A stretch of 64,000 nucleotides of DNA from Ostreococcus lucimarinus (lineage: Eukaryota): the NCBI GenBank assembly GCA_000092065.1, contig CP000597.1; one strand, 5' to 3'. Shown piece by piece: positions 36,343 through 52,915 of the stretch. Numbering within the stretch: the stretch's first letter is position 1; every line of letters starts with the position of its first letter. The translations under genes were made by a program, and so were the position numbers. The notes under the pieces are model-generated. The model ran no database searches. It was not told the origin of the DNA and saw only the letters and a program-made list of their open reading frames with translations.

Positions 36343-36615
36343 CAACGCTTCGGCGACACCCCTTGTTGTAATGGTAGCATGAAACACGAACGCGAGCCGT
36401 CAGCGATTGAGTTTGCGCCAAGCAATCGAAACGACGCGATTTAGTGATGCGATTCAGTGATGCGATTCAGTGATGCGATGGCTAAAAAACGATGAAGTAA
36501 TGATCACTTCCGTGACAAGTCAGATAACAACTCTGAAGCTCCTCGCTTTTTTCAGCGAGAGCGTAACTACCCTCCGCTAACGGCTAATAGTAATATCGTT
36601 CCTTAGGGTAAATAT

Positions 36616-37478
36616 TTACCCTTGGACTTGGCGCTGGTCAACGGCGCACGCAGCTTCGGACGCCGGGCGGTGAGCCAAGAACGCGGAGCATTGCACTTGC
36701 TTGATGTTGTCGAAGCCAGCGACGCGGACGTAGCATTCCGGGAAGCACTTGATGCAGGTGTTGATTTCCGCAATGACTTCATCCGGGTTTTGGCAGCCGT
36801 ACATGGGGAGCTTCCACATAACCCAGTAACGGTTGTCGTAGTAACCGGCGTTGATGGAGGTGTCCATGTTCGCCCAGCCGTGGCCGTCGGTGTACGCGTG
36901 CGCGGAGTCTTCGAACTCGATGCACGGGGTCCAGCCGTTGTTCAACAAGTATTGCACTTGCTTGGAGATTTCGGCGTCGGAGAGCGGCGGCAAGAAGGAG
37001 AAGGTCTCGAACATCCTGCGTGACGACGTAAAAACGAAGCGAAATCGGTCAGTACAGCGCTCGCGCGCGTCGTTCGGACCCTCGTCGGTGACCGAGTTAA
37101 AACCCTAAAACCCAATAACCCAGCGCGCGTTCCTGACCGCACGATCGCCGCCGAACGAGCCCTCGCGCGCACCCCCCACGCCGACCCCTCGCACCGCGAT
37201 CGCGGGCGTTAAAACGTCGAAGAAGAACTTTCTTCAACGAAATATCGCCCTCGCGGCGTCGTCGAGGCGCGCGCGCGCGCGCAGAGGTCGCGCAACGTTC
37301 GCGCGATGCGGCGCTATCCTCTCGCGAAAGATACGCGAAGGTTCGATCGATCGCGCGCGTTCACGTACTTGTTGCCGTGCGGGCGCCAGATCATCATGGA
37401 CTTGGCGTTGGCGACCTTGCCGGTGGTGACGGCGACGGTCTTCGCGACTTGCGCGGAAGCTTGGGTGATGGCGGACAT
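36616..37478 (-). CDS. RBCS: Rubisco small subunit precursor, copy 1. Two exons: complement(join(36616..37015,37369..37478)). Intron 37016..37368 (GT…AG).
   Basis: Exon 2 encodes MFETFSFLPPLSDAEISKQVQYLLNNGWTPCIEFEDSAHAYTDGHGWANMDTSINAGYYDNRYWVMWKLPMYGCQNPDEVIAEINTCIKCFPECYVRVAGFDNIKQVQCSAFLAHRPASEAACAVDQRQVQG*. Exon 1 encodes the transit peptide MSAITQASAQVAKTVAVTTGKVANAKSMMIWRPHGN plus the first two bases (AA) of a codon. The AA|G junction restores …GNK-MFETF, exactly as in Chlamydomonas RbcS (…VNNKMFETFSYLPPL). Confidence 0.9.
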
Positions 37479-37741: not shown

Positions 37742-38633
37742 ATGTCCGCCATCACCCAAGCCTCCGCGCAAGTCGCGAAGACCGTCGCCGTCACCACCGG
37801 CAAGGTCGCCAACGCCAAGTCCATGATGATCTGGCGCCCGCACGGCAACAAGTACGTGAACGCGCGCGCGCGACGGGACGCGAACGTAATCCGAAAAAGC
37901 GACGCGCGCGGATTGCTCGGCCGGTCGTGAAGAAGGGGTCTTCGAGGGGCGCGCGAGGGCGTCGTGACGCGCGCGATGAATGAAAAAGATGCCTGAAGTT
38001 TTTATGCATCGGATCGTCAGCGCGCGGTGGGCGTCGCGCGTCGACGCGAGCGTCGGCACGGGGTTCGAGTGAGCCCCCCCAGGGGGGAGGCCTCCGAGAT
38101 CCATCGTAACCGCCTTCGGAGATTTCTTCTTTAATTTTCCTCGCGACGCGTGGTTGCGCGTTGAAATCGACGGAAAACGATGCACAGAATAATTACTGAC
38201 CCGATTTCGCTTCGTTTTTACGTCGTCACGCAGGATGTTCGAGACCTTCTCCTTCTTGCCGCCGCTCTCCGACGCTGAAATCTCCAAGCAAGTGCAATAC
38301 TTGTTGAACAACGGCTGGACCCCGTGCATCGAGTTCGAAGACTCCGCGCACGCGTACACCGACGGCCACGGCTGGGCGAACATGGACACCTCCATCAACG
38401 CCGGTTACTACGACAACCGTTACTGGGTTATGTGGAAGCTCCCCATGTACGGCTGCCAAAACCCGGATGAAGTCATTGCGGAAATCAACACCTGCATCAA
38501 GTGCTTCCCGGATTGCTACGTCCGCGTCGCTGGCTTCGACAACATCAAGCAAGTGCAATGCTCCGCGTTCTTGGCTCACCGCCCGGCGTCCGAAGCTGCG
38601 TGCGCCGTTGACCAGCGCCAAGTCCAAGGGTAA
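37742..38633 (+). CDS. RBCS: Rubisco small subunit precursor, copy 2. Two exons: join(37742..37851,38234..38633). Intron 37852..38233 (GTACGT…CAG).
   Basis: Same exon structure as copy 1. The mature protein is identical to copy 3 and differs from copy 1 at one residue (CFPDCY versus CFPECY). The last ~45 nt of the intron (…cgatttcgcttcgtttttacgtcgtcacgcag) are conserved in all three copies. Confidence 0.9.
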
Positions 38634-39244
38634 ACGTCTCGACGTTTCCTGCGAACGCCCGCGCGCGTCTGTAGACGCGCGCTGCCGCGGACTCACGCTC
38701 GTGTAGAGATGTAGTCCTATTGAATTACATACGAAGACTTCACGTCACTTCACGCGTTAACGCTTCGCCCTCGCCCTCGCGCGTCGCGCATCTCCGGACG
38801 CTCTCTCTCCCTCTCGCGCGGACCGACCGCCGCGCAGCACACCCGGTCGTAACCGTTCCATTTGACCGTTCCAATCCCTTCTCGAACGCGCGCGAAGATT
38901 TTCCGAGATCGAGGACTCGCCGCGGTTCGCGACTCAAGAAATCTAGATCACGCCGTGAGATCTTCGCCCGCCGTCGTTTCCGCCACACGTTTCCGCGCCG
39001 CCGGGCGAAAATGAGGCTTTAGGGTTTACGCGCGTCGTATGGGCAAACAGTTCGCGAGCACTCTGCGTAGGCCCCCTGAAGGGGGCTTTTTCCTCTATTT
39101 TCTTACATACAGCTTACATAATTTATAATACAGAGAAGATCCCATATAAAGTACATCACGAATACGAATACGAACGCCCTCACAACCCCCTGACGCGCGC
39201 GCCGCCGCGGCCGAGCGACATAATCGCACGCGTATCTCGAGATC

Positions 39245-40364
39245 ATGTCTGCCATCACCCAAGCCTCCGCGCAAGTCGCGAAGACCGTCGCCGTCACCAC
39301 CGGCAAGGTCGCCAACGCCAAGTCCATGATGATCTGGCGCCCGCACGGCAACAAGTACGTATAGTTTACGACGTGTTTCGACGCGATCGCGCGCCGCGTC
39401 CGATCGCGCCGCATCCGACGCCCCGAGGGACGATCGTCGTCGTGTTCGCGCGCGTCCGCGCGCGCGTCGCCGACGCGATCGCGGTCGATCTCTTCGATGA
39501 TTTTCATCGCATCGATCGCGACGCGCGAAAGCGGCGCGCGCGCAACGTGGACGCGTGCGAACCGTCGATCACGGCGCGGTCGCGGGGTGATCGGATAAGC
39601 GCGAAAACCCAAACGCGAAAACCCAAACGGGAACCCGAGCGGGAATTTTCGGGTGTTTGCGTCGAACGGCGCGGCGTTCGACGATTTAGCGTGCGCGATG
39701 ATTTGTGCATCGTCGAGTCGGGCGTCGAGACGTCGAGACGTCGTCGCCGCGCGCGCGGCGGGGTCGGTCGGCGCGCGGATCATCCGTAGATTATCATCGA
39801 CCGGACGATCGGCCGTCGACCGACCTTTGAATGCTCGGCGCGGGAGGGTGTTTCGTACTCGGGTCGGACGCGGTCCACGAGCGACGTCACGGTTGGGCGA
39901 GCGTAGAAGACTCGCGCGAGCGCTGTACTGACCGATTTCGCTTCGTTTTTACGTCGTCACGCAGGATGTTCGAGACCTTCTCCTTCTTGCCGCCGCTCTC
40001 CGACGCCGAAATCTCCAAGCAAGTGCAATACTTGTTGAACAACGGCTGGACCCCGTGCATCGAGTTCGAAGACTCCGCGCACGCGTACACCGACGGCCAC
40101 GGCTGGGCGAACATGGACACCTCCATCAACGCCGGTTACTACGACAACCGTTACTGGGTTATGTGGAAGCTCCCCATGTACGGCTGCCAAAACCCGGATG
40201 AAGTCATTGCGGAAATCAACACCTGCATCAAGTGCTTCCCGGATTGCTACGTCCGCGTCGCTGGCTTCGACAACATCAAGCAAGTGCAATGCTCCGCGTT
40301 CTTGGCTCACCGCCCGGCGTCCGAAGCTGCGTGCGCCGTTGACCAGCGCCAAGTCCAAGGGTAA
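39245..40364 (+). CDS. RBCS: Rubisco small subunit precursor, copy 3. Two exons: join(39245..39354,39965..40364). Intron 39355..39964 (610 nt).
   Basis: Exon 1 is 110 nt and encodes the same transit peptide (atgtctgccatcacccaagcctcc…aacaa|gtacgt). Exon 2 is nucleotide-near-identical to copy 2. Its promoter has TATA-like elements (tttataatacag and ccatataaagtac) at 39120..39150. Confidence 0.9.
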
Positions 40365-40522
40365 ACGTCTCGACGTTTCCTGCGAACGCCCGCGCAAGTC
40401 GACTCAACTCAGTATTATGAAGATTTTTTCCATTTGATTTACGTAGGAAATTGCTTTGTCTGTCATAATGAGATGCATACTTACATATTAAAATGTCCCC
40501 GAATTTCTCGACGCGACTCGGA

Positions 40523-41824
40523 TCAGCGAAGCTCGCCGAGCGCCGCACGCGAGAAGACTGCCCGTGTGCTCTCGTCGCCCGCGCATACCTCTGACGAACT
40601 CGAGTCGTCGGAATTTTTGCTGAAGTCTAATGGTAATGTCAGTTCTAAGTGTCTCTTCGCGCCTGAGTATTTGAATTTGAAATCAAACGTGCGTCGAGAA
40701 CGTTCACGAAGCTCGCGCTTGCCCACGACGGCGGCGCTCGGCGGCGTCCCGGTGGTTACGACCCAACTCCGCGCTCGCTCGACGTCTCGGAGCTGCATCG
40801 TCGCCAACTCGTCCTGGCTTAAAGGCTGAGCTGTGATGGGTTTATGATTCAACCAAACGTTCACGAGGAACGTCACGCGCTTAGACGACTGCGGCGTACC
40901 GCGCGCGAACTCACTCGGGGCGCCGTGCAAGAACCGTCCGTCAAATGTGATTTGCTTCCCCCACTTTGGCCACGAAACGACGCACTCGGTGATATCACCG
41001 CACACCCCGACGTCGCCGTTTTCGTAATCACAATTCACCTTCGTCGGACGGTTCACGACCACCGTCGGCGTCCCTCCGTCGCAAAAGTACGTCACCGTGC
41101 CGAGTTGCGGATGCGCGTTGACGCCCGCGCCCTCGAGGGCGTAGTCTTTGTCCCAGTGCCACCCGATCTCATCACCCTCATCGATGACTTGCGTCCACCA
41201 CTCGGCGCCCGATTTCGAGGGATCATACCTCGCTCTCTCGTCTTCGTCGCGCGCGCCGGCGTCTCGTTCCGCGCGCGCCGCGGCTTCGCGCGTCGCCCTT
41301 CGAAACGTCTCTCGCGCTAAATACTCGAGCGCGCACCTCGGTTCGCTCTCGGCGTTCACCCAAAACGTCCTCCCACTCGACGTCCCGCTCGTCCTTCTCT
41401 TCCCTCTCGCATTTTTCGCCGTGTGCGCCGCCTCGCAATCCTTCGTCAACCGCCTCGCGTCGTCGTCGTCGAGCGCGTCTCGCCCCGCGAACGTCGTCGC
41501 GCTCGTCGTCTCGTACGTCAGGTATCGGTTCACTTCGCACGCGATTCGTCCGAGTTCATCCACCGCGAGTTCGAGCTCGGACGTCGCGCTCGCGTCGTCG
41601 TCGCTCTCGTCGCTCTCGTCGCTCTCGCTCTCGCTCTCGCTCTCGCTCGTCGTCGCCTCGCGCGCGTCGTTCGCGCGCCTCGTCCGTCGCGTCGTCATCC
41701 GCGCCTCGTCGTCGCGTCGTCGACGTCGCGCGTTCGCCGCCCCGCGTCGCGCGCGCCGGTCGCCCGACGCGCGACGGGCGTCGCGCGTTCGCCGCGTCGA
41801 CGGCCGCCGGGCTCGAGCGCGCAA
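40523..41824 (-). CDS. Hypothetical protein with a 2OG-Fe(II)-oxygenase/cupin-like HxD…H arrangement
   Basis: …IGWHWDKDYALEGAGVNAHPQLGTVTYFCDGGTPTVVVNRPTKVN…ITFDGRFLHGAP…RVTFLVNVWLNHKP…. The N-terminus has an acidic SESESESDESDESDDD tract. The first ATG after the low-complexity region is near 41698. Confidence 0.45.
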   Translation of the reverse strand: MRARARRPSTRRTRDARRASGDRRARRGAANARRRRRDDEARMTTRRTRRANDAREATTSESESESESDESDESDDDASATSELELAVDELGRIACEVNRYLTYETTSATTFAGRDALDDDDARRLTKDCEAAHTAKNARGKRRTSGTSSGRTFWVNAESEPRCALEYLARETFRRATREAAARAERDAGARDEDERARYDPSKSGAEWWTQVIDEGDEIGWHWDKDYALEGAGVNAHPQLGTVTYFCDGGTPTVVVNRPTKVNCDYENGDVGVCGDITECVVSWPKWGKQITFDGRFLHGAPSEFARGTPQSSKRVTFLVNVWLNHKPITAQPLSQDELATMQLRDVERARSWVVTTGTPPSAAVVGKRELRERSRRTFDFKFKYSGAKRHLELTLPLDFSKNSDDSSSSEVCAGDESTRAVFSRAALGELR

Positions 41825-41890
41825 GCGGACCCGAATACCACTAAAGCGTAGCGCTGTATACTCATACCCGAATGTCCGAACATCCGCGTG
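41821..41890 (+). promoter_or_regulatory. Conserved 70-bp TATA-containing promoter module, copy A, upstream of the phosphate transporter gene
   Basis: gcaagcggacccgaataccactaaagcgtagcgctgtatactcatacccgaatgtccgaacatccgcgtg. It is about 90% identical to copy B at 44206..44274. It contains TGTATACTCATA and the CCGAATGTCCGAA motif, and ends 240 bp upstream of the PiT ATG. Confidence 0.5.
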
Positions 41891-42129
41891 AAAGTGCTAC
41901 ACTTTGTCAGGAAAATGTCGATTCACAGTCGATTCACAGTTGATGAACATTGCAACAAGTTGCAAAAATCGAGTTCGATTGGAACCAATCGCGTCTTCTT
42001 TCGAGGTTCACGAACCGTGAATTCGTTCCGCGAGGAATATTCTCGGAATCTCGCCTTTTCAAATTCCCGCGTGGGAATATGCGCAGTCGCCGCAAGAACA
42101 CGTCGCGCGCCGTCTCGTCACGCACAACG

Positions 42130-43879
42130 ATGAGCTCTTCGGATGCGCTCGCTCAAGCGTCCCGCCACCTTTTGGCCGGCGCTACTGAAACCAAGAGATT
42201 CGAATGGATCGTCGTTTGCGGCGGTTTCCTCGCCTTCTTCGCCGCCTTTGGCATCGGTACGCACACGATGCGCGCACTTTTTACCTTTCGCGTTCATAGG
42301 CTTTAATGACACGGCTTGGTCGCACACGTGCGATTGGAGTGTATTAGAAGCATCACTGACGTCGTGCGATCAATCGTATTTACCTACAGGTGCCAACGAC
42401 GTCGCGAATGCGTTCGCCACCTCTGTCGGGTCCGGCGCGTTGACCATTAAAAACGCTGTAGTCCTCGCCGCGATCTTTGAATTCTGTGGTGCCATGTTCA
42501 TGGGCGGTCACGTCGTCAACACAATTCGCAAGGGCATTGCTAACCAGAAATGCTTCGCCGGTACCGGTGGTGCCAACGATCCCGGCCTCTTGATGTACGG
42601 CTGCCTATGCGTCATTTTTGCCGTCGCCATCTGGCTCGTCGTCGCATCTGCCTTCGAAATGGCCGTCTCCACGACGCACTCGTGCGTTGGTGGTATGATT
42701 GGAATGACTTTGGTCGCGCGTGGTAGCGAGTGTGTCATTTGGACCAAGAAAGCGGACGAATTCCCGTACGTCAAAGGCGTCGTCGCCGTCATCATCTCCT
42801 GGCTCTTGTCCCCGGTCATCTCTGGCGCCTTTGCGTTCGTCTTCTTCGTGACCCTGCGTACTCTCGTCATGCGTTCCGAACATTCTTATTCTCGTACTGC
42901 CGTCGCGTTCCCAGTGTTGCTTGCGTGCACTCTCATCATCAACATCTTCTTCATCGTGTACAAGGGCGCCAAGTTCCTTGAGCTCGACGACACACCGGTC
43001 GGTACGGCGTGCGCCATCGCGTTCGGCATCGGCGGAGGATGTGGCATTGTTGCGTACTTCTTCGTTACCCCTTACATCCTCAAGACGACCGATGAGCTCT
43101 TCGAGAAGCAACAGCTCGAAAAGGCGGAGCGTGGTTCGGGCAAGAAGGCCGAAGAGAAGGTCGTCCGTCAACCGCGCGAGTATCCTGTCGGGGTCTTTGG
43201 CGCGCCGCGTCGCATGTGGTACGCTCTGCAAGATCATCTTGAATCTTCACTCACCCACAAGGCTGAAGACATTCTTGACGAAGACATGGCTGTATTGGCG
43301 ATCCACGAAAACGCCGAAAAGTTTGACGAAAAGACTGAACTTTGCATGCGATACTTGCAAATCCTCACCGCGTGCTGCGACTCGTTCGCGCACGGCGCCA
43401 ACGATGTGGCCAACTCTATCGGTCCCTTCGCCTCTATGGTAGTCGTCTTCAAGAGCGGTAAAGTTTCGAAGGAAGCTGAAATGGGCGACGATTCATATTG
43501 GATTCTCGGTCTTGGCGCTGCCGGCATCGTCTGTGGCCTCGCCTTGTACGGCTACAAGATTCTTCACGCTCTCGGTACCAAGATTGCCAAGCTCACCCCG
43601 AGTCGCGGTATCTGCATCGAGCTTGGTGCGGCTTGCGTCATCATCATGGGATCCCGTCTCGGCTGGCCGCTGTCTACCACTCACTGCCAAGTTGGTGCCA
43701 CCGTCGGCGTCGCCCTACTCGAAGGCCGCAAGGGCATCAACTGGTTCATCATCGGTAAAACTGTGTTCGGCTGGATCATCACCCTCGTCATCGTCGGCTT
43801 CTCCACGGCGGCGTTCTTCGCACAAGGTGCCTACGCTCCGATGAAGAGCTACCCGTGCTACATCACAGGTAGTTGCTAA
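42130..43879 (+). CDS. PiT/PHO4-family Na+/H+-coupled inorganic phosphate transporter. Two exons: join(42130..42256,42390..43879). Intron 42257..42389.
   Basis: Exon 1 encodes MSSSDALAQASRHLLAGATETKRFEWIVVCGGFLAFFAAFGIG and ends …ATCG|gtacgc. Exon 2 begins after …tacctacag|GTGCCAACGAC and restores the PiT signature GANDVANAFATSVGSGALT (phase-1 intron). A second PiT repeat GANDVANSIGPFAS lies near the C-terminal half. The track splits the gene into ORFs 41950..42306 and 42143..43879. Confidence 0.9.
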
Positions 43880-44205
43880 ATGGGCCCTCCTAGCTTACCC
43901 CCTCCCTAGGTTACCCCCGACGGAGTTATTCTTTGAATACTCTCGGTGTTTTTCCCGCTATTGATAGCGATGAGATTCTCGACAAATTCGCGTTCAGTGG
44001 GGTCTGAAAATTTGCCGTCGCCCACGAGAGCGTCGAATTGCTCCGCCAACGTCCGTCGAATTGCTCCGCCAACGTCAGCGATGGCGCGCCTGTGCGAGAG
44101 AATTCAGACTCAACAATACTTCGCGCGCGCGCTGTTTTGGTTCCAACCGGAGCCGCACGGATCAATTGCACACCGCGTAATCGCCCTGAGTGGTATCGAT
44201 ACCAC

Positions 44206-44274
44206 GCAAGCGGACCCAAATACCACTAAAGCATAGTACTATATACTCATATCCGAATGTCCGAACATCCGCGC
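44206..44274 (+). promoter_or_regulatory. Conserved 70-bp TATA-containing promoter module, copy B, upstream of the PNPOx-like gene
   Basis: gcaagcggacccaaataccactaaagcatagtactatatactcatatccgaatgtccgaacatccgcgcg. It contains CTATATACTCATA, a TATA box, and CCGAATGTCCGAA. It ends about 95 bp upstream of the ATG at 44369. Confidence 0.5.
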
Positions 44275-44368
44275 GATTCCCGCCGCGATTCGCCGCGATT
44301 CGCCGCGACTCCGCGACGCGCGCGACGACGGACGGCGAACGACGCCTCGAGACGACGGCGCGCGCGCG

Positions 44369-45607
44369 ATGGCGACGACGACGACCCCGCGCGTCGCGAC
44401 GACGGGCGCGCGGGCGGCGCGAGGCCGACGCGCGAGGACGGAGGCGACGCGCGCGAACGCGACGGCGACGCGCGCGACGGGACGACGCGCGAACGGGACG
44501 GCCGCGAGGGACGCGCGAGCGAAAAGCGCGGGAAAGGACGACGGCGCGAGCGATCAGGGAGGGTCGAGCGGCGTGGAAAGGGAGACGCGCGCGCGACGGA
44601 CGCCGAGCGCGCGAGAGAGCGCGATGGAGGCGGCGGCGGCGCGCGAGGCGGAAAACGCGGGGATGAAGCCGTCGTCGAGCGGGGAGACGGCGACGCGGAC
44701 GGTGAAGGACGAGGCGCTGGAGATACCGTTTCAGAGCACGAGTCCGAGGAAACGGGTCGGGCGAACGCGGTTGTTGCGGACGCCCATGGCGGGGGGGGTG
44801 GTGAGCCGAGACACCAAGGATAGCAACTTGCCCTCGATGGCGACGGCGGCGAGAAACTTGATGGAACTCGCGGATTACGGCGATTTGAGCACGACGATGA
44901 GCGACATGCATCATCGTCGCGCTGGGTACCCGTTCGGAAGCACGGTGGACTTCGCGACGGACGCCACGGGGCATCCAATCTTTTGCCTGGCGCCGCTCGC
45001 GATTCACACGCGCAACATCGCCGCCGACGGCAAGTGCTCGTTGACGGTGAAGATGAGCGGTTGGGGCGGGTTGGCGAACGCCAGGGTGACGATATTCGGC
45101 GACGTTCAGCGCTTGCCCAACGGAGAGTATCAAACGGCGGCGAACGAAATCTTCAAGTCCAAGTATCACGCGCGCAAGGAAGCCATCGACATGGAGGATC
45201 GCTGGGGCGACTACACGTATTATCGCATGAATCGCATCGTCGACGTGTACTTCGTCGGTGGGTTCGGAACGTTGAACTGGATCAAGCTCGACGAGTACTG
45301 CTCGACGTCCCCCGACACGATCGTCACCGCCGCGCACGGTAAGAGCGTCATCGAAACCTTGGGCGAGCTCAACACGCGCTTCTCCCAGCGTCTCGCCGCG
45401 CACATGGGCAATCTCTTGGACCTCGTCGTGGACGATTTATGGATCATCTCCATCGATCGTCGCGGTATGGACGTTCGCGTGCGCACCGACGGCAGCTCGT
45501 TGATTCGCAGAATCTCTTTCGACACCGACGTCGAGTGTTTCGACGACGCCAAGCGCGCCGTCGAGTGCGCGTTGACCAACGACGACCTCTGTCGCGGCGA
45601 GTTCTGA
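44369..45607 (+). CDS. Pyridoxamine 5'-phosphate oxidase-like FMN-binding split-barrel protein (plant At3g03890/GluTR-binding-protein-like), plastid-targeted
   Basis: The T/A/R-rich transit peptide is followed by …AARNLMELADYGDLSTTMSDMHHRRAGYPFGSTVDFATDATGHPIFCLAPLAIHTRNIAADGKCSLTV…, which matches the PNPOx-like fold. The start is an ATG at 44369. Confidence 0.6.
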   Translation: MATTTTPRVATTGARAARGRRARTEATRANATATRATGRRANGTAARDARAKSAGKDDGASDQGGSSGVERETRARRTPSARESAMEAAAAREAENAGMKPSSSGETATRTVKDEALEIPFQSTSPRKRVGRTRLLRTPMAGGVVSRDTKDSNLPSMATAARNLMELADYGDLSTTMSDMHHRRAGYPFGSTVDFATDATGHPIFCLAPLAIHTRNIAADGKCSLTVKMSGWGGLANARVTIFGDVQRLPNGEYQTAANEIFKSKYHARKEAIDMEDRWGDYTYYRMNRIVDVYFVGGFGTLNWIKLDEYCSTSPDTIVTAAHGKSVIETLGELNTRFSQRLAAHMGNLLDLVVDDLWIISIDRRGMDVRVRTDGSSLIRRISFDTDVECFDDAKRAVECALTNDDLCRGEF

Positions 45608-50341: not shown

Positions 50342-52915
50342 TTAAACGTTGTGCACCACGTACGAGCTCTTGAACGCGGTGGTACCGCTCTTCCGAGACT
50401 TGTGCAACGCGATGGAGCCAACGATGACGCCAGCGAGGGCGACGATGAAGCTAATCGCCGCGAGCGCCTCCGCGGCGCGAATTTCCTTTGTGGACACGCC
50501 TCCCGAGCTGAGACCGTGCACGTGCGCCACCAAATCGGCGTAGCTCGTGCTGGAGAATTCCGTCTTGATGTCGCAGTGGACGTGATACGCTTTGTGGTAT
50601 TGGCCGAGTTCGGAGTCGGTGAAACCAAACACGCCCTTCAAGTTGGCGATGGCGGTGCAATAGTTGTCGTAGGCCCACGTACCGCGCGCGGGCGCGGTGC
50701 GCACGTCGAATAGCGCGTCGAAGAATTGGTACGCATCCGAGAACGTCGACGTACCCTTGGCCTTGACGTCGCCCGCGATGACGCGGTACAACGCCTGGCC
50801 CTCGGCTTGGTCGTCCCCGTACGCCGCGACGGCGCCGCTCTTGAGCGCCGTGTCAATCTTGAACGCGTACTTGATGACGCACTGAGAGTACACGATGCGC
50901 AGTTGCCTTTCGATGCCCTCGTAAATGTTGTGGAGGTCGGTGCAGTCCTTCTGTTCTTGCCCCGAGCGCAACAGCTTCAGGATGGTCTCGTACGGCTTCG
51001 CCGTGTGCGCCGTGCCCATGGTGCCGAACTCGACGCCGCGCTTTTGCGCGCGACCCATGACGGAGTGGTAGCCGTCGCCGATGAGCAGCGCCGCGGCGAC
51101 GTCCCACGCAGCCTCTTGATCCGCAGACTTTTGATTGTTCACGCACACCGTGGAGCTTTGAGCATAACTCAAGTGATTGAGCGCGGCGTGGAAGCCGACG
51201 GCGTCCAACATCGTCTTTTCAATCATTTCTTTGGCCGCTTCGTGATAATTTTTACCGCTCTTCGCGAGCGTCACGGCCTCGGCGATGTAACCTGAAAGCG
51301 GCGTACCCGTAGCCGCATGTTTGCCCGACGACCCCACGGCAACCTTGGTGAATTCGTACTGCGTCATACGCGGGTTCCATTCGTTCGACGTGTACGGCGC
51401 GGTTTCGGTCCACGCCTTGTACGCTTCCACGAAATCAGACGACATGTCATCCCAAGAGGCGCTGACGTCTTCGTTGCGAATGAACGTGTCCATCTCGGCG
51501 ACGATGTGCGCCACGTTCTTGCTCAAGCCCAACGCCTTTGCGTACTGCGTCTTCGCGCTCACGGTGGCTTGCGCGGTGCTGCTGTGCGTGAGTTCTGACG
51601 TGAAGTACGAGCCGGCGAGAGACTTGAGCTCTCTGGCCGGATCCTCGTTCGTTTCCAACGCGCAGTTCACGTAAGCGGCGTCGGAGTACGTGCCGAGCGA
51701 CGCCTCCTTGACGCCGTGAGAAGACATCGTGTTGATGAAGTCGACGACGTGCGTCCTGGCGGTGCAATAATTGCCGTAATCCCAGGTGCCTCTCTGCTTT
51801 GAGATTTCGATGTCAAAGAAGGTATTGAAGAACCCAACGGCACCACTGCAAGCGGTCGCGCACTTACGAAGCATGTCACCGGCGATGACGCGGTACATCG
51901 CCTGACCTTCCGCGACGATGTCGTCGTAGGCGTTGACGGATGCCCCGGACGCGAGCTTCTTGTCAATCTTGTATGCATACTTCAAGATGGATTGCGCGTA
52001 CACCACCCGCATCTGCGCTTCGATGTCTTCGTAGATGTTGTGCAAATCAGCGCACATGTCGTTCGTGCCCTCGATTTCTTGACCGTCTCGTAAGAGTTTG
52101 ACGATGGTTTCGTACGGCTTGGAGATGCCCGCCGCGCCCATGGTGCCGAACTCGAGCCCACGCTTTTGCGCGCGCCCCAAGACGGAGTGATATCCATCAC
52201 CGATGAGTAACGCGGCGGCGACGTCCCAATGCGCCTTCATAGCGTCGGTTTGAGAGCTACCCGTGCACAAGCTGCCGGCACCCACGTCTTCTTGCGCCGC
52301 CGCCAACGCCAACAGCGAGCCTTGATAGCCGACGGCGTCCCAGACGGTCTTTTCGATGATTTCGCGCATCGCCTCGAGCCTGGTTCCGGCCGTATCCGCT
52401 TTCGCGATAACCACCGCCTCGGCGATGTACGCCTCCAACGGATTAGCGACAGCAGTCACGCCATTGATGCCGCGCAAGACCTTCGGAGTGGAAATCCAAG
52501 TCCACTCGTTGGACGTCGTTGCATAGTTGGCGACGGCGTCCTCGACCCAAGTCTTCGACATCGAGTCGTAATTCGTATCCATTTTGTCCCAATTATCAGA
52601 GCTGTTCGTGAACGTGCGAAGCTCGGCGATGATGTGCGCGACGCTGTTCCCGTAGTCGAGCGCGTTTTCAATACTCGTGTGCGCGTTGCCGCCGTTCACT
52701 GATTCCGTCGTCGTACTCAACGTATTGAGCTTGTAGCTCCCCGCCAGCGTCGAGATGTGCGTCAGTGCGTTCGCACCGACGCCGCACGCGCTCATCACCC
52801 CCATCGCCGCGATCGTCGCCCGCTTCGTCGCGCGTCGCCCTCGCGCGCATCGCCCCCGCCTCGCGTCCCCGTCGTCGTTCTTCTTCCCCGTCGCGTCTCC
52901 CGCGCGTCGCGCCAT
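50342..52915 (-). CDS. FEA1/ISIP2a (phytotransferrin)-like iron-assimilation protein with an internally duplicated ~330-aa domain, signal peptide and C-terminal TM anchor
   Basis: There are two homologous halves. The motif HWDVAAALLIGDGYHSVLGRAQKRGLEFGTMG in the first half and WDVAAALLIGDGYHSVMGRAQKRGVEFGTMG in the second are near-identical. A C-terminal TM, AISFIVALAGVIVGSIALH, follows. The architecture fits algal Fea1/ISIP2a-type ferric uptake proteins; the family assignment is from memory. Confidence 0.55.
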   Translation of the reverse strand: MARRAGDATGKKNDDGDARRGRCARGRRATKRATIAAMGVMSACGVGANALTHISTLAGSYKLNTLSTTTESVNGGNAHTSIENALDYGNSVAHIIAELRTFTNSSDNWDKMDTNYDSMSKTWVEDAVANYATTSNEWTWISTPKVLRGINGVTAVANPLEAYIAEAVVIAKADTAGTRLEAMREIIEKTVWDAVGYQGSLLALAAAQEDVGAGSLCTGSSQTDAMKAHWDVAAALLIGDGYHSVLGRAQKRGLEFGTMGAAGISKPYETIVKLLRDGQEIEGTNDMCADLHNIYEDIEAQMRVVYAQSILKYAYKIDKKLASGASVNAYDDIVAEGQAMYRVIAGDMLRKCATACSGAVGFFNTFFDIEISKQRGTWDYGNYCTARTHVVDFINTMSSHGVKEASLGTYSDAAYVNCALETNEDPARELKSLAGSYFTSELTHSSTAQATVSAKTQYAKALGLSKNVAHIVAEMDTFIRNEDVSASWDDMSSDFVEAYKAWTETAPYTSNEWNPRMTQYEFTKVAVGSSGKHAATGTPLSGYIAEAVTLAKSGKNYHEAAKEMIEKTMLDAVGFHAALNHLSYAQSSTVCVNNQKSADQEAAWDVAAALLIGDGYHSVMGRAQKRGVEFGTMGTAHTAKPYETILKLLRSGQEQKDCTDLHNIYEGIERQLRIVYSQCVIKYAFKIDTALKSGAVAAYGDDQAEGQALYRVIAGDVKAKGTSTFSDAYQFFDALFDVRTAPARGTWAYDNYCTAIANLKGVFGFTDSELGQYHKAYHVHCDIKTEFSSTSYADLVAHVHGLSSGGVSTKEIRAAEALAAISFIVALAGVIVGSIALHKSRKSGTTAFKSSYVVHNV

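What the first reader, a model, noticed from the sequence alone, without database searches (positions are those of the whole stretch)
41821..44274. A 70-bp TATA-containing module present twice (~90% identical), flanking the phosphate-transporter gene as direct repeats
Copy A (41821..41890) lies upstream of the PiT gene. Copy B (44206..44274) lies 327 bp downstream of the PiT stop and about 95 bp upstream of the next plus-strand gene. Both contain TATA-like CTATATACTCATA or TGTATACTCATA, then CCGAATGTCCGAACATCCGCG. Both even create identical spurious ORF tails (…ADPNTTKA*). Two explanations fit: a duplicated portable promoter cassette that includes the TSS/leader, or the direct-repeat termini of an insertion that brought in the PiT gene. 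I see no target-site duplication or terminal inverted repeats, so I favour the promoter-module explanation.
Basis: seen in the sequence. Interest (0 to 1): 0.6.

Follow-up and report, generated by a model that had tools for sequence, protein, structure and literature searches.

The report
Target-site repeat around inserted phosphate-transporter gene
The two 72-bp repeats are copies of the host's own spacer sequence, one on each side of a recently inserted second copy of the phosphate-transporter gene that some wild Ostreococcus strains carry and others lack.

Summary
There are two 72-nt direct repeats, 90% identical, at 41820-41891 and 44205-44276, and no other copy in the window.

The window is Ostreococcus (lucimarinus-like) nuclear DNA. 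The repeats are not a portable promoter cassette. Three wild haplotypes lack the phosphate-transporter gene (PHO4/HAPT) here and carry one module between the same two flanking genes. A sister species has the same empty arrangement and keeps a 19-nt core of the module, inverted.

A 1,977-bp PHO4 unit (41985-43961) is 99-99.7% identical to a second copy at a constant low-GC locus (RFC1-Fip1-PHO4-PheRS). That copy has no module. The unit holds 146 bp of upstream sequence with two P1BS phosphate-response motifs.

At this locus the insert also carries a truncated fragment of a pogo-like transposase gene. It has no terminal inverted repeats.

The repeat is therefore native target sequence, probably the CREG-like gene's promoter block. 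It was duplicated at the borders of an ectopic, repair-type insertion of PHO4 DNA from the low-GC region.

The exact route to the upstream copy is unresolved, because haplotypes with PHO4 but without copy A also exist. This is a clear natural copy-number polymorphism of an ecologically important gene, produced by a known kind of event.

The parts
41820..41891 (+). Copy A of the 72-nt module, upstream of PHO4. It is absent from PHO4-carrying haplotypes L014 and L015.
44205..44276 (+). Copy B of the module, 93 nt upstream of the CREG-like gene ATG. It is present in every haplotype, including those without PHO4.
41868..41886 (+). 19-nt core CCGAATGTCCGAACATCCG inside copy A.
44253..44271 (+). The same 19-nt core inside copy B. 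It is conserved, in inverted orientation, in the syntenic spacer of a sister species.
41892..41984 (+). AT-rich stretch between copy A and the duplicated PHO4 unit. About 84 nt (41892-41975) have no homologue in anything fetched. Only haplotypes that have copy A carry this stretch.
41985..43961 (+). 1,977-bp PHO4 unit, 99-99.7% identical to the copy at the low-GC locus RFC1-Fip1-PHO4-PheRS.
42035..42082 (+). Two P1BS (GNATATNC) motifs, at 42035-42042 and 42075-42082, 96 and 56 nt before the PHO4 ATG. They mark the gene's own short phosphate-responsive promoter.
   Evidence: O. tauri HAPT promoter, PMC3236181
42131..43879 (+). PHO4/HAPT coding region: exon 1 42131-42256, intron 42257-42389, exon 2 42390-43879.
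43962..44204 (-). Remnant of a pogo-like (DDE_1) transposase gene convergent with PHO4. 43962-44053 is the 3' coding end (99.5% to L019). 44054-44072 is a short tandem duplication. 44073-44204 is the 5' part that adjoins the full gene in L010/L011.
40523..41698 (-). Left flanking gene (391 aa, no Pfam match), divergent from PHO4. In empty haplotypes it directly neighbours the CREG-like gene.
44369..45607 (+). Right flanking gene, CREG beta-barrel / putative haem-utilisation protein (412 aa).

Best explanation
The 72-nt module is native non-coding DNA of the short spacer between two divergently transcribed Ostreococcus genes, the 391-aa gene and the CREG-like gene. It is most likely the promoter or cis-regulatory block of the CREG-like gene, built around a conserved 19-nt element.

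In part of the O. lucimarinus-like population, DNA copied from the low-GC region that corresponds to atypical chromosome 2 was pasted into this spacer at ...GACG^GACCC.... The DNA comprises the self-contained PHO4/HAPT gene with its 146-bp P1BS promoter, plus part of an adjacent pogo-like transposase gene. The insert now sits between two copies of the module, so the repeats are duplicated target sequence, not part of the cargo.

Shown here:
- a presence/absence polymorphism, with one module in the empty alleles;
- an ancestral empty state;
- a near-identical second PHO4 copy on another contig of the same samples;
- the lack of transposon hallmarks.

Inferred: the mechanism was break repair or replicative template switching, not transposition.

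Two routes to copy A fit the data. (i) A one-step insertion re-copied about 64-72 nt of the target, and the A-less haplotypes are later deletions. (ii) A clean insertion came first (haplotype L015), and later repair templated on a different allele added copy A plus 84 nt of filler. I slightly favour (ii).
For: Organism:
- An exact protein match to a UniRef entry of Ostreococcus sp. 'lucimarinus', and a cluster that contains O. lucimarinus XP_001422172.
- O. lucimarinus pho4 is XP_001422167, five accession numbers away.

Empty alleles:
- L001, L013 and L049 join window ~41814-41822 to 44211 with one module and no PHO4.
- Their modules and left spacers differ from one another. Copy B is near-identical in about 20 PHO4-carrying contigs.

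Outgroup:
- In L039, L042 and L054 the CREG-like gene is 77% and the left gene 66% identical at nucleotide level.
- These contigs have a 319-bp spacer, no PHO4, and the 19-mer in inverted orientation.
- The chance rate of the 19-mer is about 10 per 596 Gb.

Not cargo:
- The PHO4 unit 41985-43961 at the second locus has no module at either junction.
- The two loci lie on separate long contigs of the same samples, 3300046167 and 3300050343.

Not a multi-copy cassette:
- A metagenome-wide scan found the core only at this locus, in the sister species' syntenic spacer, and in 6 unrelated chance contexts.

Own promoter:
- Two of the three P1BS motifs in 64 kb lie at -96 and -56 of PHO4, as in the 119-bp O. 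tauri HAPT promoter.

Not transposition:
- There are no terminal inverted repeats.
- The insert's right end cuts the transposase gene at least 570 bp short of the 5' extent seen in L058.

Route (ii):
- The L015 insert starts at 41976, within 0-9 nt of where homology to the second locus starts.
- Copy A shares its variant bases with empty alleles L049/L001, and copy B with L013.
Against: - No donor haplotype holding the 84 nt at 41892-41975 was found. The primary form of the insert is therefore not settled.
- Route (ii) needs a second, complex event. Route (i) needs a later deletion whose two ends coincide with the module start and with the start of donor homology.
- Junction microhomology is only about 2 nt (CG), which is uninformative.
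- In the window-type haplotype, A and B also share 6 extra nt (CGCAAG) that belong to the insert's right end. L020 and L034 lack this feature, so further exchange between the copies must be assumed.
- Some short-read contigs join this locus's left flank to the second locus's right flank (L020, L021). These may be assembly chimeras.
- Promoter function of the module is inferred from position, composition and conservation only.
Confidence: 0.8

Rival explanations
1. Portable promoter cassette. The module is a reusable TATA/TSS unit that has been copied in front of PHO4 and in front of the next gene.
For: Both copies point towards a downstream plus-strand gene, contain a TATA-like stretch and share an identical 21-mer. 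The 19-nt core is conserved between species, so it is probably a functional cis-element.
Against: Only this locus carries it in a metagenome-wide scan. The second genomic PHO4 copy, and haplotypes L014 and L015 at this locus, have PHO4 without copy A. PHO4 has its own 146-bp P1BS region.
Confidence: 0.04
2. Terminal direct repeats of a mobile element (LTR/TRIM-like, or att-type repeats of an integrating element) that carries PHO4. On this reading the 'empty' alleles are solo repeats left after excision or recombination.
For: Direct repeats flank a 2.3-kb insert, and a single copy remains in alleles without the insert. A transposase-gene fragment lies inside the insert.
Against: The same PHO4 unit at the second locus has no such repeats. 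A sister species with no PHO4 here keeps the 19-nt core in the same spacer. The single-copy alleles are more diverse than the repeats in filled alleles. Neither a reverse transcriptase nor an integrase is encoded in the insert. The DDE gene is a truncated fragment and there are no inverted termini.
Confidence: 0.04
3. PHO4 is ancestral at this locus, and the empty alleles are deletions produced by recombination between copies A and B.
For: Direct repeats of 72 nt can mediate pop-out deletions. The region shows several independent deletions (L005, L052, L014).
Against: The sister species is empty. More distant PHO4 relatives (L017, L018) lie in low-GC contexts next to an ACP gene, and O. tauri HAPT is on chromosome II. 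Empty alleles hold 90-98 nt of left spacer, including a two-unit GGGCCCGCGA..GACG array, that A-bearing haplotypes lack or have fused. They therefore cannot derive from A x B exchange.
Confidence: 0.08
4. Assembly artefact. The repeats or the empty alleles come from mis-joined metagenome contigs across a repeated gene.
For: PHO4 is a 2-kb repeat at 99% or more identity. Contigs with mixed flanks exist (L020, L021, L019).
Against: Both arrangements recur on independent long contigs from different projects. These are filled contigs of 229-362 kb and empty contigs of 117 and 356 kb, plus a 4-kb JGI contig. Each has its own sequence variants at the junctions.
Confidence: 0.02

Closest known systems
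O. tauri HAPT (PHO89/PHO4-like) gene and its 119-bp phosphate-regulated promoter on atypical chromosome II (Djouani-Tahri et al. 2011, PMC3236181)
   Same: It is the same gene family. Both have a very short upstream region with P1BS GNATATNC motifs. Both have a low-GC, transposon-rich home region.
   Different: Here a second, near-identical copy sits in a GC-rich region about 8-25 kb from the end of a ~362-kb contig. It is present or absent among wild strains and is bracketed by duplicated target DNA. It has two P1BS motifs instead of one.
Dispersed ('transposed') gene duplication by double-strand-break repair or microhomology-mediated template switching (MMBIR/FoSTeS-type templated insertion). 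Named from my own knowledge, not tested against a database.
   Same: A near-identical donor exists elsewhere in the genome. The segment ends are arbitrary and cut through a neighbouring gene. There are no transposon termini. Target sequence is duplicated at the borders. An empty allele is still segregating.
   Different: Microhomology at the junctions is minimal (about 2 nt). The two target copies look like different alleles, which suggests at least one step templated on a homologous chromosome.
Recently duplicated 'modular' paralogues in distinct contexts on O. tauri chromosome 19 (Yau et al. 2016, PMC5082852)
   Same: Single genes are copied at very high identity into new neighbourhoods in Ostreococcus. 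Transposon-related genes lie nearby and the mechanism is stated as unclear.
   Different: Those are glycosyltransferase and sugar-transporter genes within the small outlier chromosome. Here the gene is the phosphate transporter, copied from the low-GC region into an ordinary GC-rich region. The empty site and both junctions are available.
Host-derived pho4 genes of prasinoviruses (Monier et al. 2012, PMC3429862)
   Same: It is the same gene, and it is known to move between genomes in this system.
   Different: Virus-sized contigs carry PHO4 proteins only 61-64% identical to this one. No viral contig holds the module or the 84-nt leader. The source here is the alga's own second copy.
Target-site duplications of Tc1/mariner/pogo DNA transposons
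   Same: Direct repeats of target DNA flank an insert that contains a DDE_1 transposase sequence.
   Different: Pogo-type elements make a 2-bp TA duplication and have terminal inverted repeats (my own knowledge). Here the duplication is 64-72 nt, there are no inverted termini and the transposase gene is a truncated passenger.

Membership tests
Portable / multi-copy promoter cassette | The same module is found upstream of several unrelated genes in the genome | tested here: not met
   There are two copies in 64 kb, both at this locus. The metagenome scan with the 19-nt core found only this locus, the sister species' syntenic spacer and 6 chance contexts. A whole reference genome was not available.
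Portable / multi-copy promoter cassette | The module travels with the gene it drives | tested here: not met
   The PHO4 unit at the RFC1-Fip1-PHO4-PheRS locus has no module. L014 and L015 have PHO4 at this locus without copy A.
Tc1/mariner/pogo DNA transposon insertion | Terminal inverted repeats at the insert ends | tested here: not met
   The best left/right inverted match is 13 nt, internal, and scores 21 against a shuffle mean of 14.5 and maximum of 25. None was found in the L058 copy either.
Tc1/mariner/pogo DNA transposon insertion | 2-bp TA target-site duplication | tested here: not met
   The insertion point is GACG^GACCC. The flanking duplication is 64-72 nt.
Tc1/mariner/pogo DNA transposon insertion | A complete transposase gene inside the element | tested here: not met
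   The window holds only a 243-nt remnant. L010/L011 hold a DDE_1 gene (E=1.8e-5) whose homology to the L058 copy stops at least 570 bp short of that copy's 5' extent.
LTR/TRIM retroelement or solo-LTR | The repeats belong to the element and recur at its other insertions; the sites are empty in relatives | tested here: not met
   The other PHO4 locus has no repeats. The sister species keeps the core of the module although it has no insert.
Integrase-mediated site-specific integration (att repeats) | An integrase/recombinase gene in the insert and an attP-bearing circular form | tested here: not met
   The only ORFs in the insert are PHO4 and the DDE fragment. A circular form cannot be tested with these tools.
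Dispersed gene duplication by repair/template switching | A near-identical donor copy elsewhere in the same genome | tested here: met
   The unit is 99-99.7% identical over 1,977 bp. The two loci lie on separate long contigs of the same samples.
Dispersed gene duplication by repair/template switching | A segregating or ancestral empty target site | tested here: met
   L001, L013 and L049, plus sister species contigs L039, L042 and L054.
Dispersed gene duplication by repair/template switching | Microhomology or filler DNA at the junctions | tested here: inconclusive
   About 2 nt (CG) are shared at the junctions. There are 84 nt of unmatched sequence next to copy A.
PHO4/PiT phosphate transporter with P1BS promoter (Ostreococcus HAPT) | PHO4 domain, and GNATATNC within about 100 bp upstream | tested here: met
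   Pfam PF01384 at E=2.9e-111. P1BS motifs at -96 and -56, which are two of the three in 64 kb. Phosphate regulation itself was not tested.

The most novel reading that the evidence does not exclude
The conserved module may be a recurrent break and repair hotspot in a promoter near a chromosome end. The same position (CG^GACCC) is the insertion point, the border of the A-less haplotype and the end of several deletions. DNA from the low-GC chromosome has been captured there. The resulting extra phosphate-transporter copy would then be kept as a balanced or locally adaptive dosage polymorphism, for example tracking phosphate scarcity in wild Ostreococcus populations.
Probability: 0.15. Interest if true: 0.65.

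Novelty: new member of a known kind. Interest (0 to 1): 0.42.

Why it matters
PHO4/HAPT is the high-affinity phosphate uptake gene of a globally abundant picoalga. It is also one of the few host genes that its viruses have captured.

- Wild O. lucimarinus-like genomes differ by a whole extra copy, and the empty site, the filled site and intermediate forms are all recoverable. This gives a ready marker: the junction k-mers can be used to ask whether gene dosage follows phosphate availability.
- It provides a rare, fully resolved example of how single genes leave the atypical low-GC chromosome region and settle elsewhere in these tiny genomes.
- It pinpoints a 19-nt non-coding element conserved between species, a candidate regulatory site in an organism for which few such sites are known.
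- For annotation, the module's direct repeat should not be read as a promoter family or as transposon termini.

Tried and rejected
- Viral origin. Three scans of viral contigs, with both halves of the module and with the 84-nt leader, found nothing. Virus-sized contigs carry PHO4 proteins only 61-64% identical.
- RNA gene. No Rfam match at E<=1 and no tRNA in 41000-45000.
- Transposon termini. No significant inverted repeats were found at the insert ends or in the L058 copy.
- Origin of the 84-nt stretch. A sensitive blastn against everything fetched found only the same locus.
- Bacterial and archaeal genomes. The 5' half gave no match. The 19-mer gave 10 chance matches, which were used only as a background rate.
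- Exact-protein look-ups of the left gene and of the 578-aa read-through ORF failed.
- The attempt to fetch the CCE9901 reference chromosome through P0293 returned only an 804-bp contig. Identity of the window with the reference strain is therefore inferred, not shown.
- The local alignment of the sister species' spacer to this species' spacer is dominated by GTC/GAC low-complexity runs and adds nothing beyond the exact 19-mer.
- The sigma-70 promoter scan was not used because the organism is a eukaryote.
Full report
**1.

The repeat finder returns a two-copy direct repeat of 72 nt at 41820-41891 (copy A) and 44205-44276 (copy B). It is 90% identical, ungapped, and the copies are 2385 nt apart. 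Each half of the module occurs only at these two places in the 64-kb window, even with 3 mismatches allowed. The chance expectations are 0.03 and 0.00.

**2. What the window is**

The gene between the repeats has a GT..AG intron at 42257-42389. Once spliced (ATG 42131, stop 43879) it gives a 538-aa protein that matches Pfam PHO4 at E=2.9e-111.

The neighbourhood holds three nuclear rbcS genes and other eukaryotic genes. Exact and 90%-cluster look-ups tie the sequence to Ostreococcus:
- a protein from a related contig is identical to a UniRef entry of Ostreococcus sp. 'lucimarinus';
- the window's Myb protein clusters with O. lucimarinus CCE9901 XP_001422172.

Monier et al. give the O. lucimarinus pho4 as XP_001422167, five accession numbers away. 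This fits the gene order seen here. The reference strain therefore very probably has PHO4 at this locus (inference).

On three ~362-kb contigs the stretch fetched around the locus lies about 8-25 kb from a contig end.

**3. Empty sites exist**

I looked up contigs that encode exactly the right-hand gene (CREG-like, 44369-45607), its close variants and the nearby rbcS. This returned many independent haplotypes.

Two long contigs (117 kb and 356 kb; L001, L013) and one 4-kb JGI contig (L049) join window ~41814-41822 directly to 44211. They have no PHO4 and exactly one module.

The three empty alleles differ substantially from each other in the module and in the 90-98-nt GC-rich spacer to its left. 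That spacer contains a degenerate tandem copy of the module's 5' half. Copy B, in contrast, is almost invariant in about 20 PHO4-carrying contigs apart from one or two TCCGAATG octamers. The empty class is therefore old and diverse, and the filled class is young.

**4. Empty is ancestral**

I classified them by blastn:
- nine are this locus of this species;
- six are unrelated chance contexts;
- three (L039, L042, L054) come from a sister species whose CREG-like and left genes are 77% and 66% identical at nucleotide level.

In the sister species the two genes are separated by a 319-bp spacer without PHO4. The 19-mer sits in that spacer in the opposite orientation, 128 nt from one ATG and 172 nt from the other.

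The background rate of the 19-mer is about 10 matches per 596 Gb of bacterial genomes. A match in that particular spacer is therefore not chance.

More distant PHO4 relatives (79% and 73% nucleotide identity; L017, L018) lie next to an acyl-carrier-protein gene in ~45% GC DNA. The O. tauri orthologue (HAPT) lies on the atypical, low-GC, transposon-rich chromosome II.

**5. The cargo has a twin elsewhere, and the twin has no module**

Contigs that encode the identical 578-aa read-through ORF show the same 1,977-bp unit (41985-43961; 99-99.7% identity) between PheRS and Fip1/RFC1 in ~45% GC DNA. Neither junction there has any trace of the module.

This second locus and the window's locus occur on separate long contigs of the same samples:

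| Sample | Contig with second locus | Contig with this locus |
|---|---|---|
| 3300046167 | 341 kb | 362 kb |
| 3300050343 | 532 kb | 362 kb |

These genomes therefore really have two PHO4 copies.

The two copies share the same minor variants irrespective of locus, which points to ongoing gene conversion.

The unit holds only 146 bp upstream of the ATG. That stretch contains two of the window's three P1BS (GNATATNC) motifs, at -96 and -56. This mirrors the 119-bp phosphate-regulated HAPT promoter of O. tauri. PHO4 therefore does not need copy A.

**6. The rest of the insert**

Downstream of the unit, 43962-44204 is the remnant of a gene convergent with PHO4. In haplotypes L010/L011 the same position holds an intron-containing gene with a DDE_1 (pogo-like transposase) domain. 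That gene abuts copy B through the same 132 nt as in the window.

The window keeps only the 3' coding end, which is 99.5% identical to the version seen next to PHO4 in L019, and the 5' part. The two pieces are joined at a GTC microhomology with a 23-nt tandem duplication.

The family is small: nine clusters were found. A 75%-identical copy in a different, transposon- and glycosyltransferase-rich context (L058) extends at least 570 bp further 5' than the copy here. The insert's right end is therefore a truncation point, not a transposon terminus. No terminal inverted repeats are detectable. Homology to the transposase family starts exactly where the PHO4 unit ends, at 43962.

The inserted piece is thus a chunk of 'PHO4 plus part of its transposase neighbour'. 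This arrangement is seen in the low-GC contig L019. It was copied, not transposed.

**7. How the module came to be on both sides**

Five forms are seen at the left junction:
- (a) L020: the full ancestral-type left spacer, then copy A, 84 nt of AT-rich DNA and the unit.
- (b) L034 (62-kb contig): the same with a shorter spacer. As in (a), copy A is preceded by the ancestral-type GACG (CTGTGACG in L034, as in the empty alleles; CTATGACG in L020).
- (c) The window, L002 and L007-L009: a shorter spacer, with copy A preceded by CGCAAGCG as copy B is.
- (d) L015: the ancestral spacer joined directly, GTGACG|ATTGGAACCAATCG, to window 41976. Copy A and the 84 nt are both absent.
- (e) L014: the same as (d) with a further 30-nt deletion.

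L020 and L015 share the same derived fusion of the two GGGCCCGCGA..GACG units. They therefore differ by a single event, the presence or absence of 'copy A + 84 nt'.

There are two routes to copy A.

Route (i). The primary insertion included the 84 nt and re-copied 64-72 nt of target. A staggered break, or template switching that re-entered behind the departure point, could do this. L015 would then be a later deletion.

Route (ii). L015 is the primary, clean insertion at GACG^GACCC. Copy A plus filler was added later, by repair templated on an empty homologue.

Two observations favour route (ii):
- The L015 insert begins within 0-9 nt of the point where homology to the second locus begins.
- Copy A and copy B carry different allele states. 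At three of the four positions that separate them (A has G/G/G/C, B has A/A/A/T), copy A matches empty alleles L049/L001 and copy B matches empty allele L013. At the fourth, copy B alone carries A where every other copy carries G.

Route (i) is simpler in the number of events.

Either way the repeats are target DNA. I put about 55:45 on (ii) over (i).

**8. Function of the module (inferred)**

The module is the only AT-rich block in an otherwise GC-rich spacer. It has a TATATA-like stretch, and it ends about 93 nt before the CREG-like ATG.

Eight-nucleotide octamer copy-number changes within it shift the frame of an upstream ATG. Gene callers therefore report 412- or 449/452-aa products, which shows that the block is non-coding.

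The 19-nt core is invariant in all copies and alleles and in the sister species. I read copy B as the CREG-like gene's core promoter or cis-element, and copy A as a by-product that may or may not add to PHO4 or left-gene expression. No transcript data were available.

**9. Comparison with known systems, and verdict**

The PHO4 gene and its short P1BS promoter are known from O. tauri (PMC3236181). Host-to-virus transfer of the gene is also known (PMC3429862). Unexplained 'modular' duplication of single genes has been noted for O. tauri chromosome 19 (PMC5082852).

In the papers I searched I found no description of any of the following:
- a second PHO4 copy at this locus;
- its presence/absence polymorphism;
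- the target duplication;
- the conserved 19-mer.

The event type, a dispersed gene duplication by repair with flanking target duplication, is known. I therefore rate it a new member of a known kind.

It is of moderate interest for two reasons. The gene is ecologically important, and all stages of the event are preserved in wild populations.

Noticed in passing
L010:1-1548 (minus strand), L011; remnant at window 43962-44204: An intron-containing pogo-like DDE_1 transposase gene sits between PHO4's position and copy B in some haplotypes, and both contigs end inside it. A 75%-identical copy lies in a transposon- and glycosyltransferase-rich context (L058). The family has only 9 protein clusters in the database.
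   Followed up: partly
window 36615-37071 (-), 38194-38664 (+), 39909-40395 (+): There are three rbcS genes, 99.3-100% identical to each other, in mixed orientation just left of the locus. One copy is more diverged in the empty haplotypes L001 and L013 (about 95-96%).
   Followed up: no
window 44245-44260 and the same place in L002-L016: The octamer TCCGAATG occurs once or twice in copy B depending on haplotype (L004 has a larger internal duplication). The 8-nt change puts an upstream ATG in or out of frame, so gene callers give 412- or 449/452-aa CREG-like proteins.
   Followed up: partly
window 42035-42042 and 42075-42082: Two PHR1/PSR1-type P1BS motifs (GNATATNC) lie 96 and 56 nt upstream of the PHO4 ATG. 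Only one other occurs in the whole 64 kb.
   Followed up: yes
window 43877-43902 (PHO4 3' UTR): Two 3'-UTR length variants (with or without CTTACCCCC) occur at both PHO4 loci irrespective of flanks. This suggests gene conversion between the copies, or strain-wise homogenisation. L014 and L015 have a third, more diverged version.
   Followed up: partly
L005 (del 43939-44099), L052 (del ~44033-44201), L014 (30-nt del at 41960-41989): Several independent small deletions cluster around the insert borders in different wild haplotypes. One of them (L052) ends at the GACCC start of the module, the point where the insert and the L015 junction also break.
   Followed up: partly
L019:7764-8603 (minus strand), L019:8969-9730: A Tara contig shows PheRS-PHO4 followed by a 279-aa gene, whose C-terminus is homologous to the transposase C-terminus, and then a GPN-loop GTPase instead of Fip1. 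This is either a third arrangement of the low-GC locus or a chimeric assembly.
   Followed up: no
window 50768-51106 and 51875-52228: An internal ~350-nt repeat (about 72% identity) lies inside the long minus-strand ORF (~900 aa) right of the locus.
   Followed up: no
L017:257-1621, L018:464-1963: PHO4 relatives at 79% and 73% nucleotide identity lie next to an acyl-carrier-protein gene in 45% GC DNA. L017 comes from the same sample as L034, so it could be a co-occurring Ostreococcus clade or a further paralogue.
   Followed up: no
L054:10735-10750 (sister species spacer): A palindromic G-box-like GCCACGTGGC lies 20 nt from the conserved 19-mer in the sister species' spacer. It has no counterpart in this species' module.
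   Followed up: no
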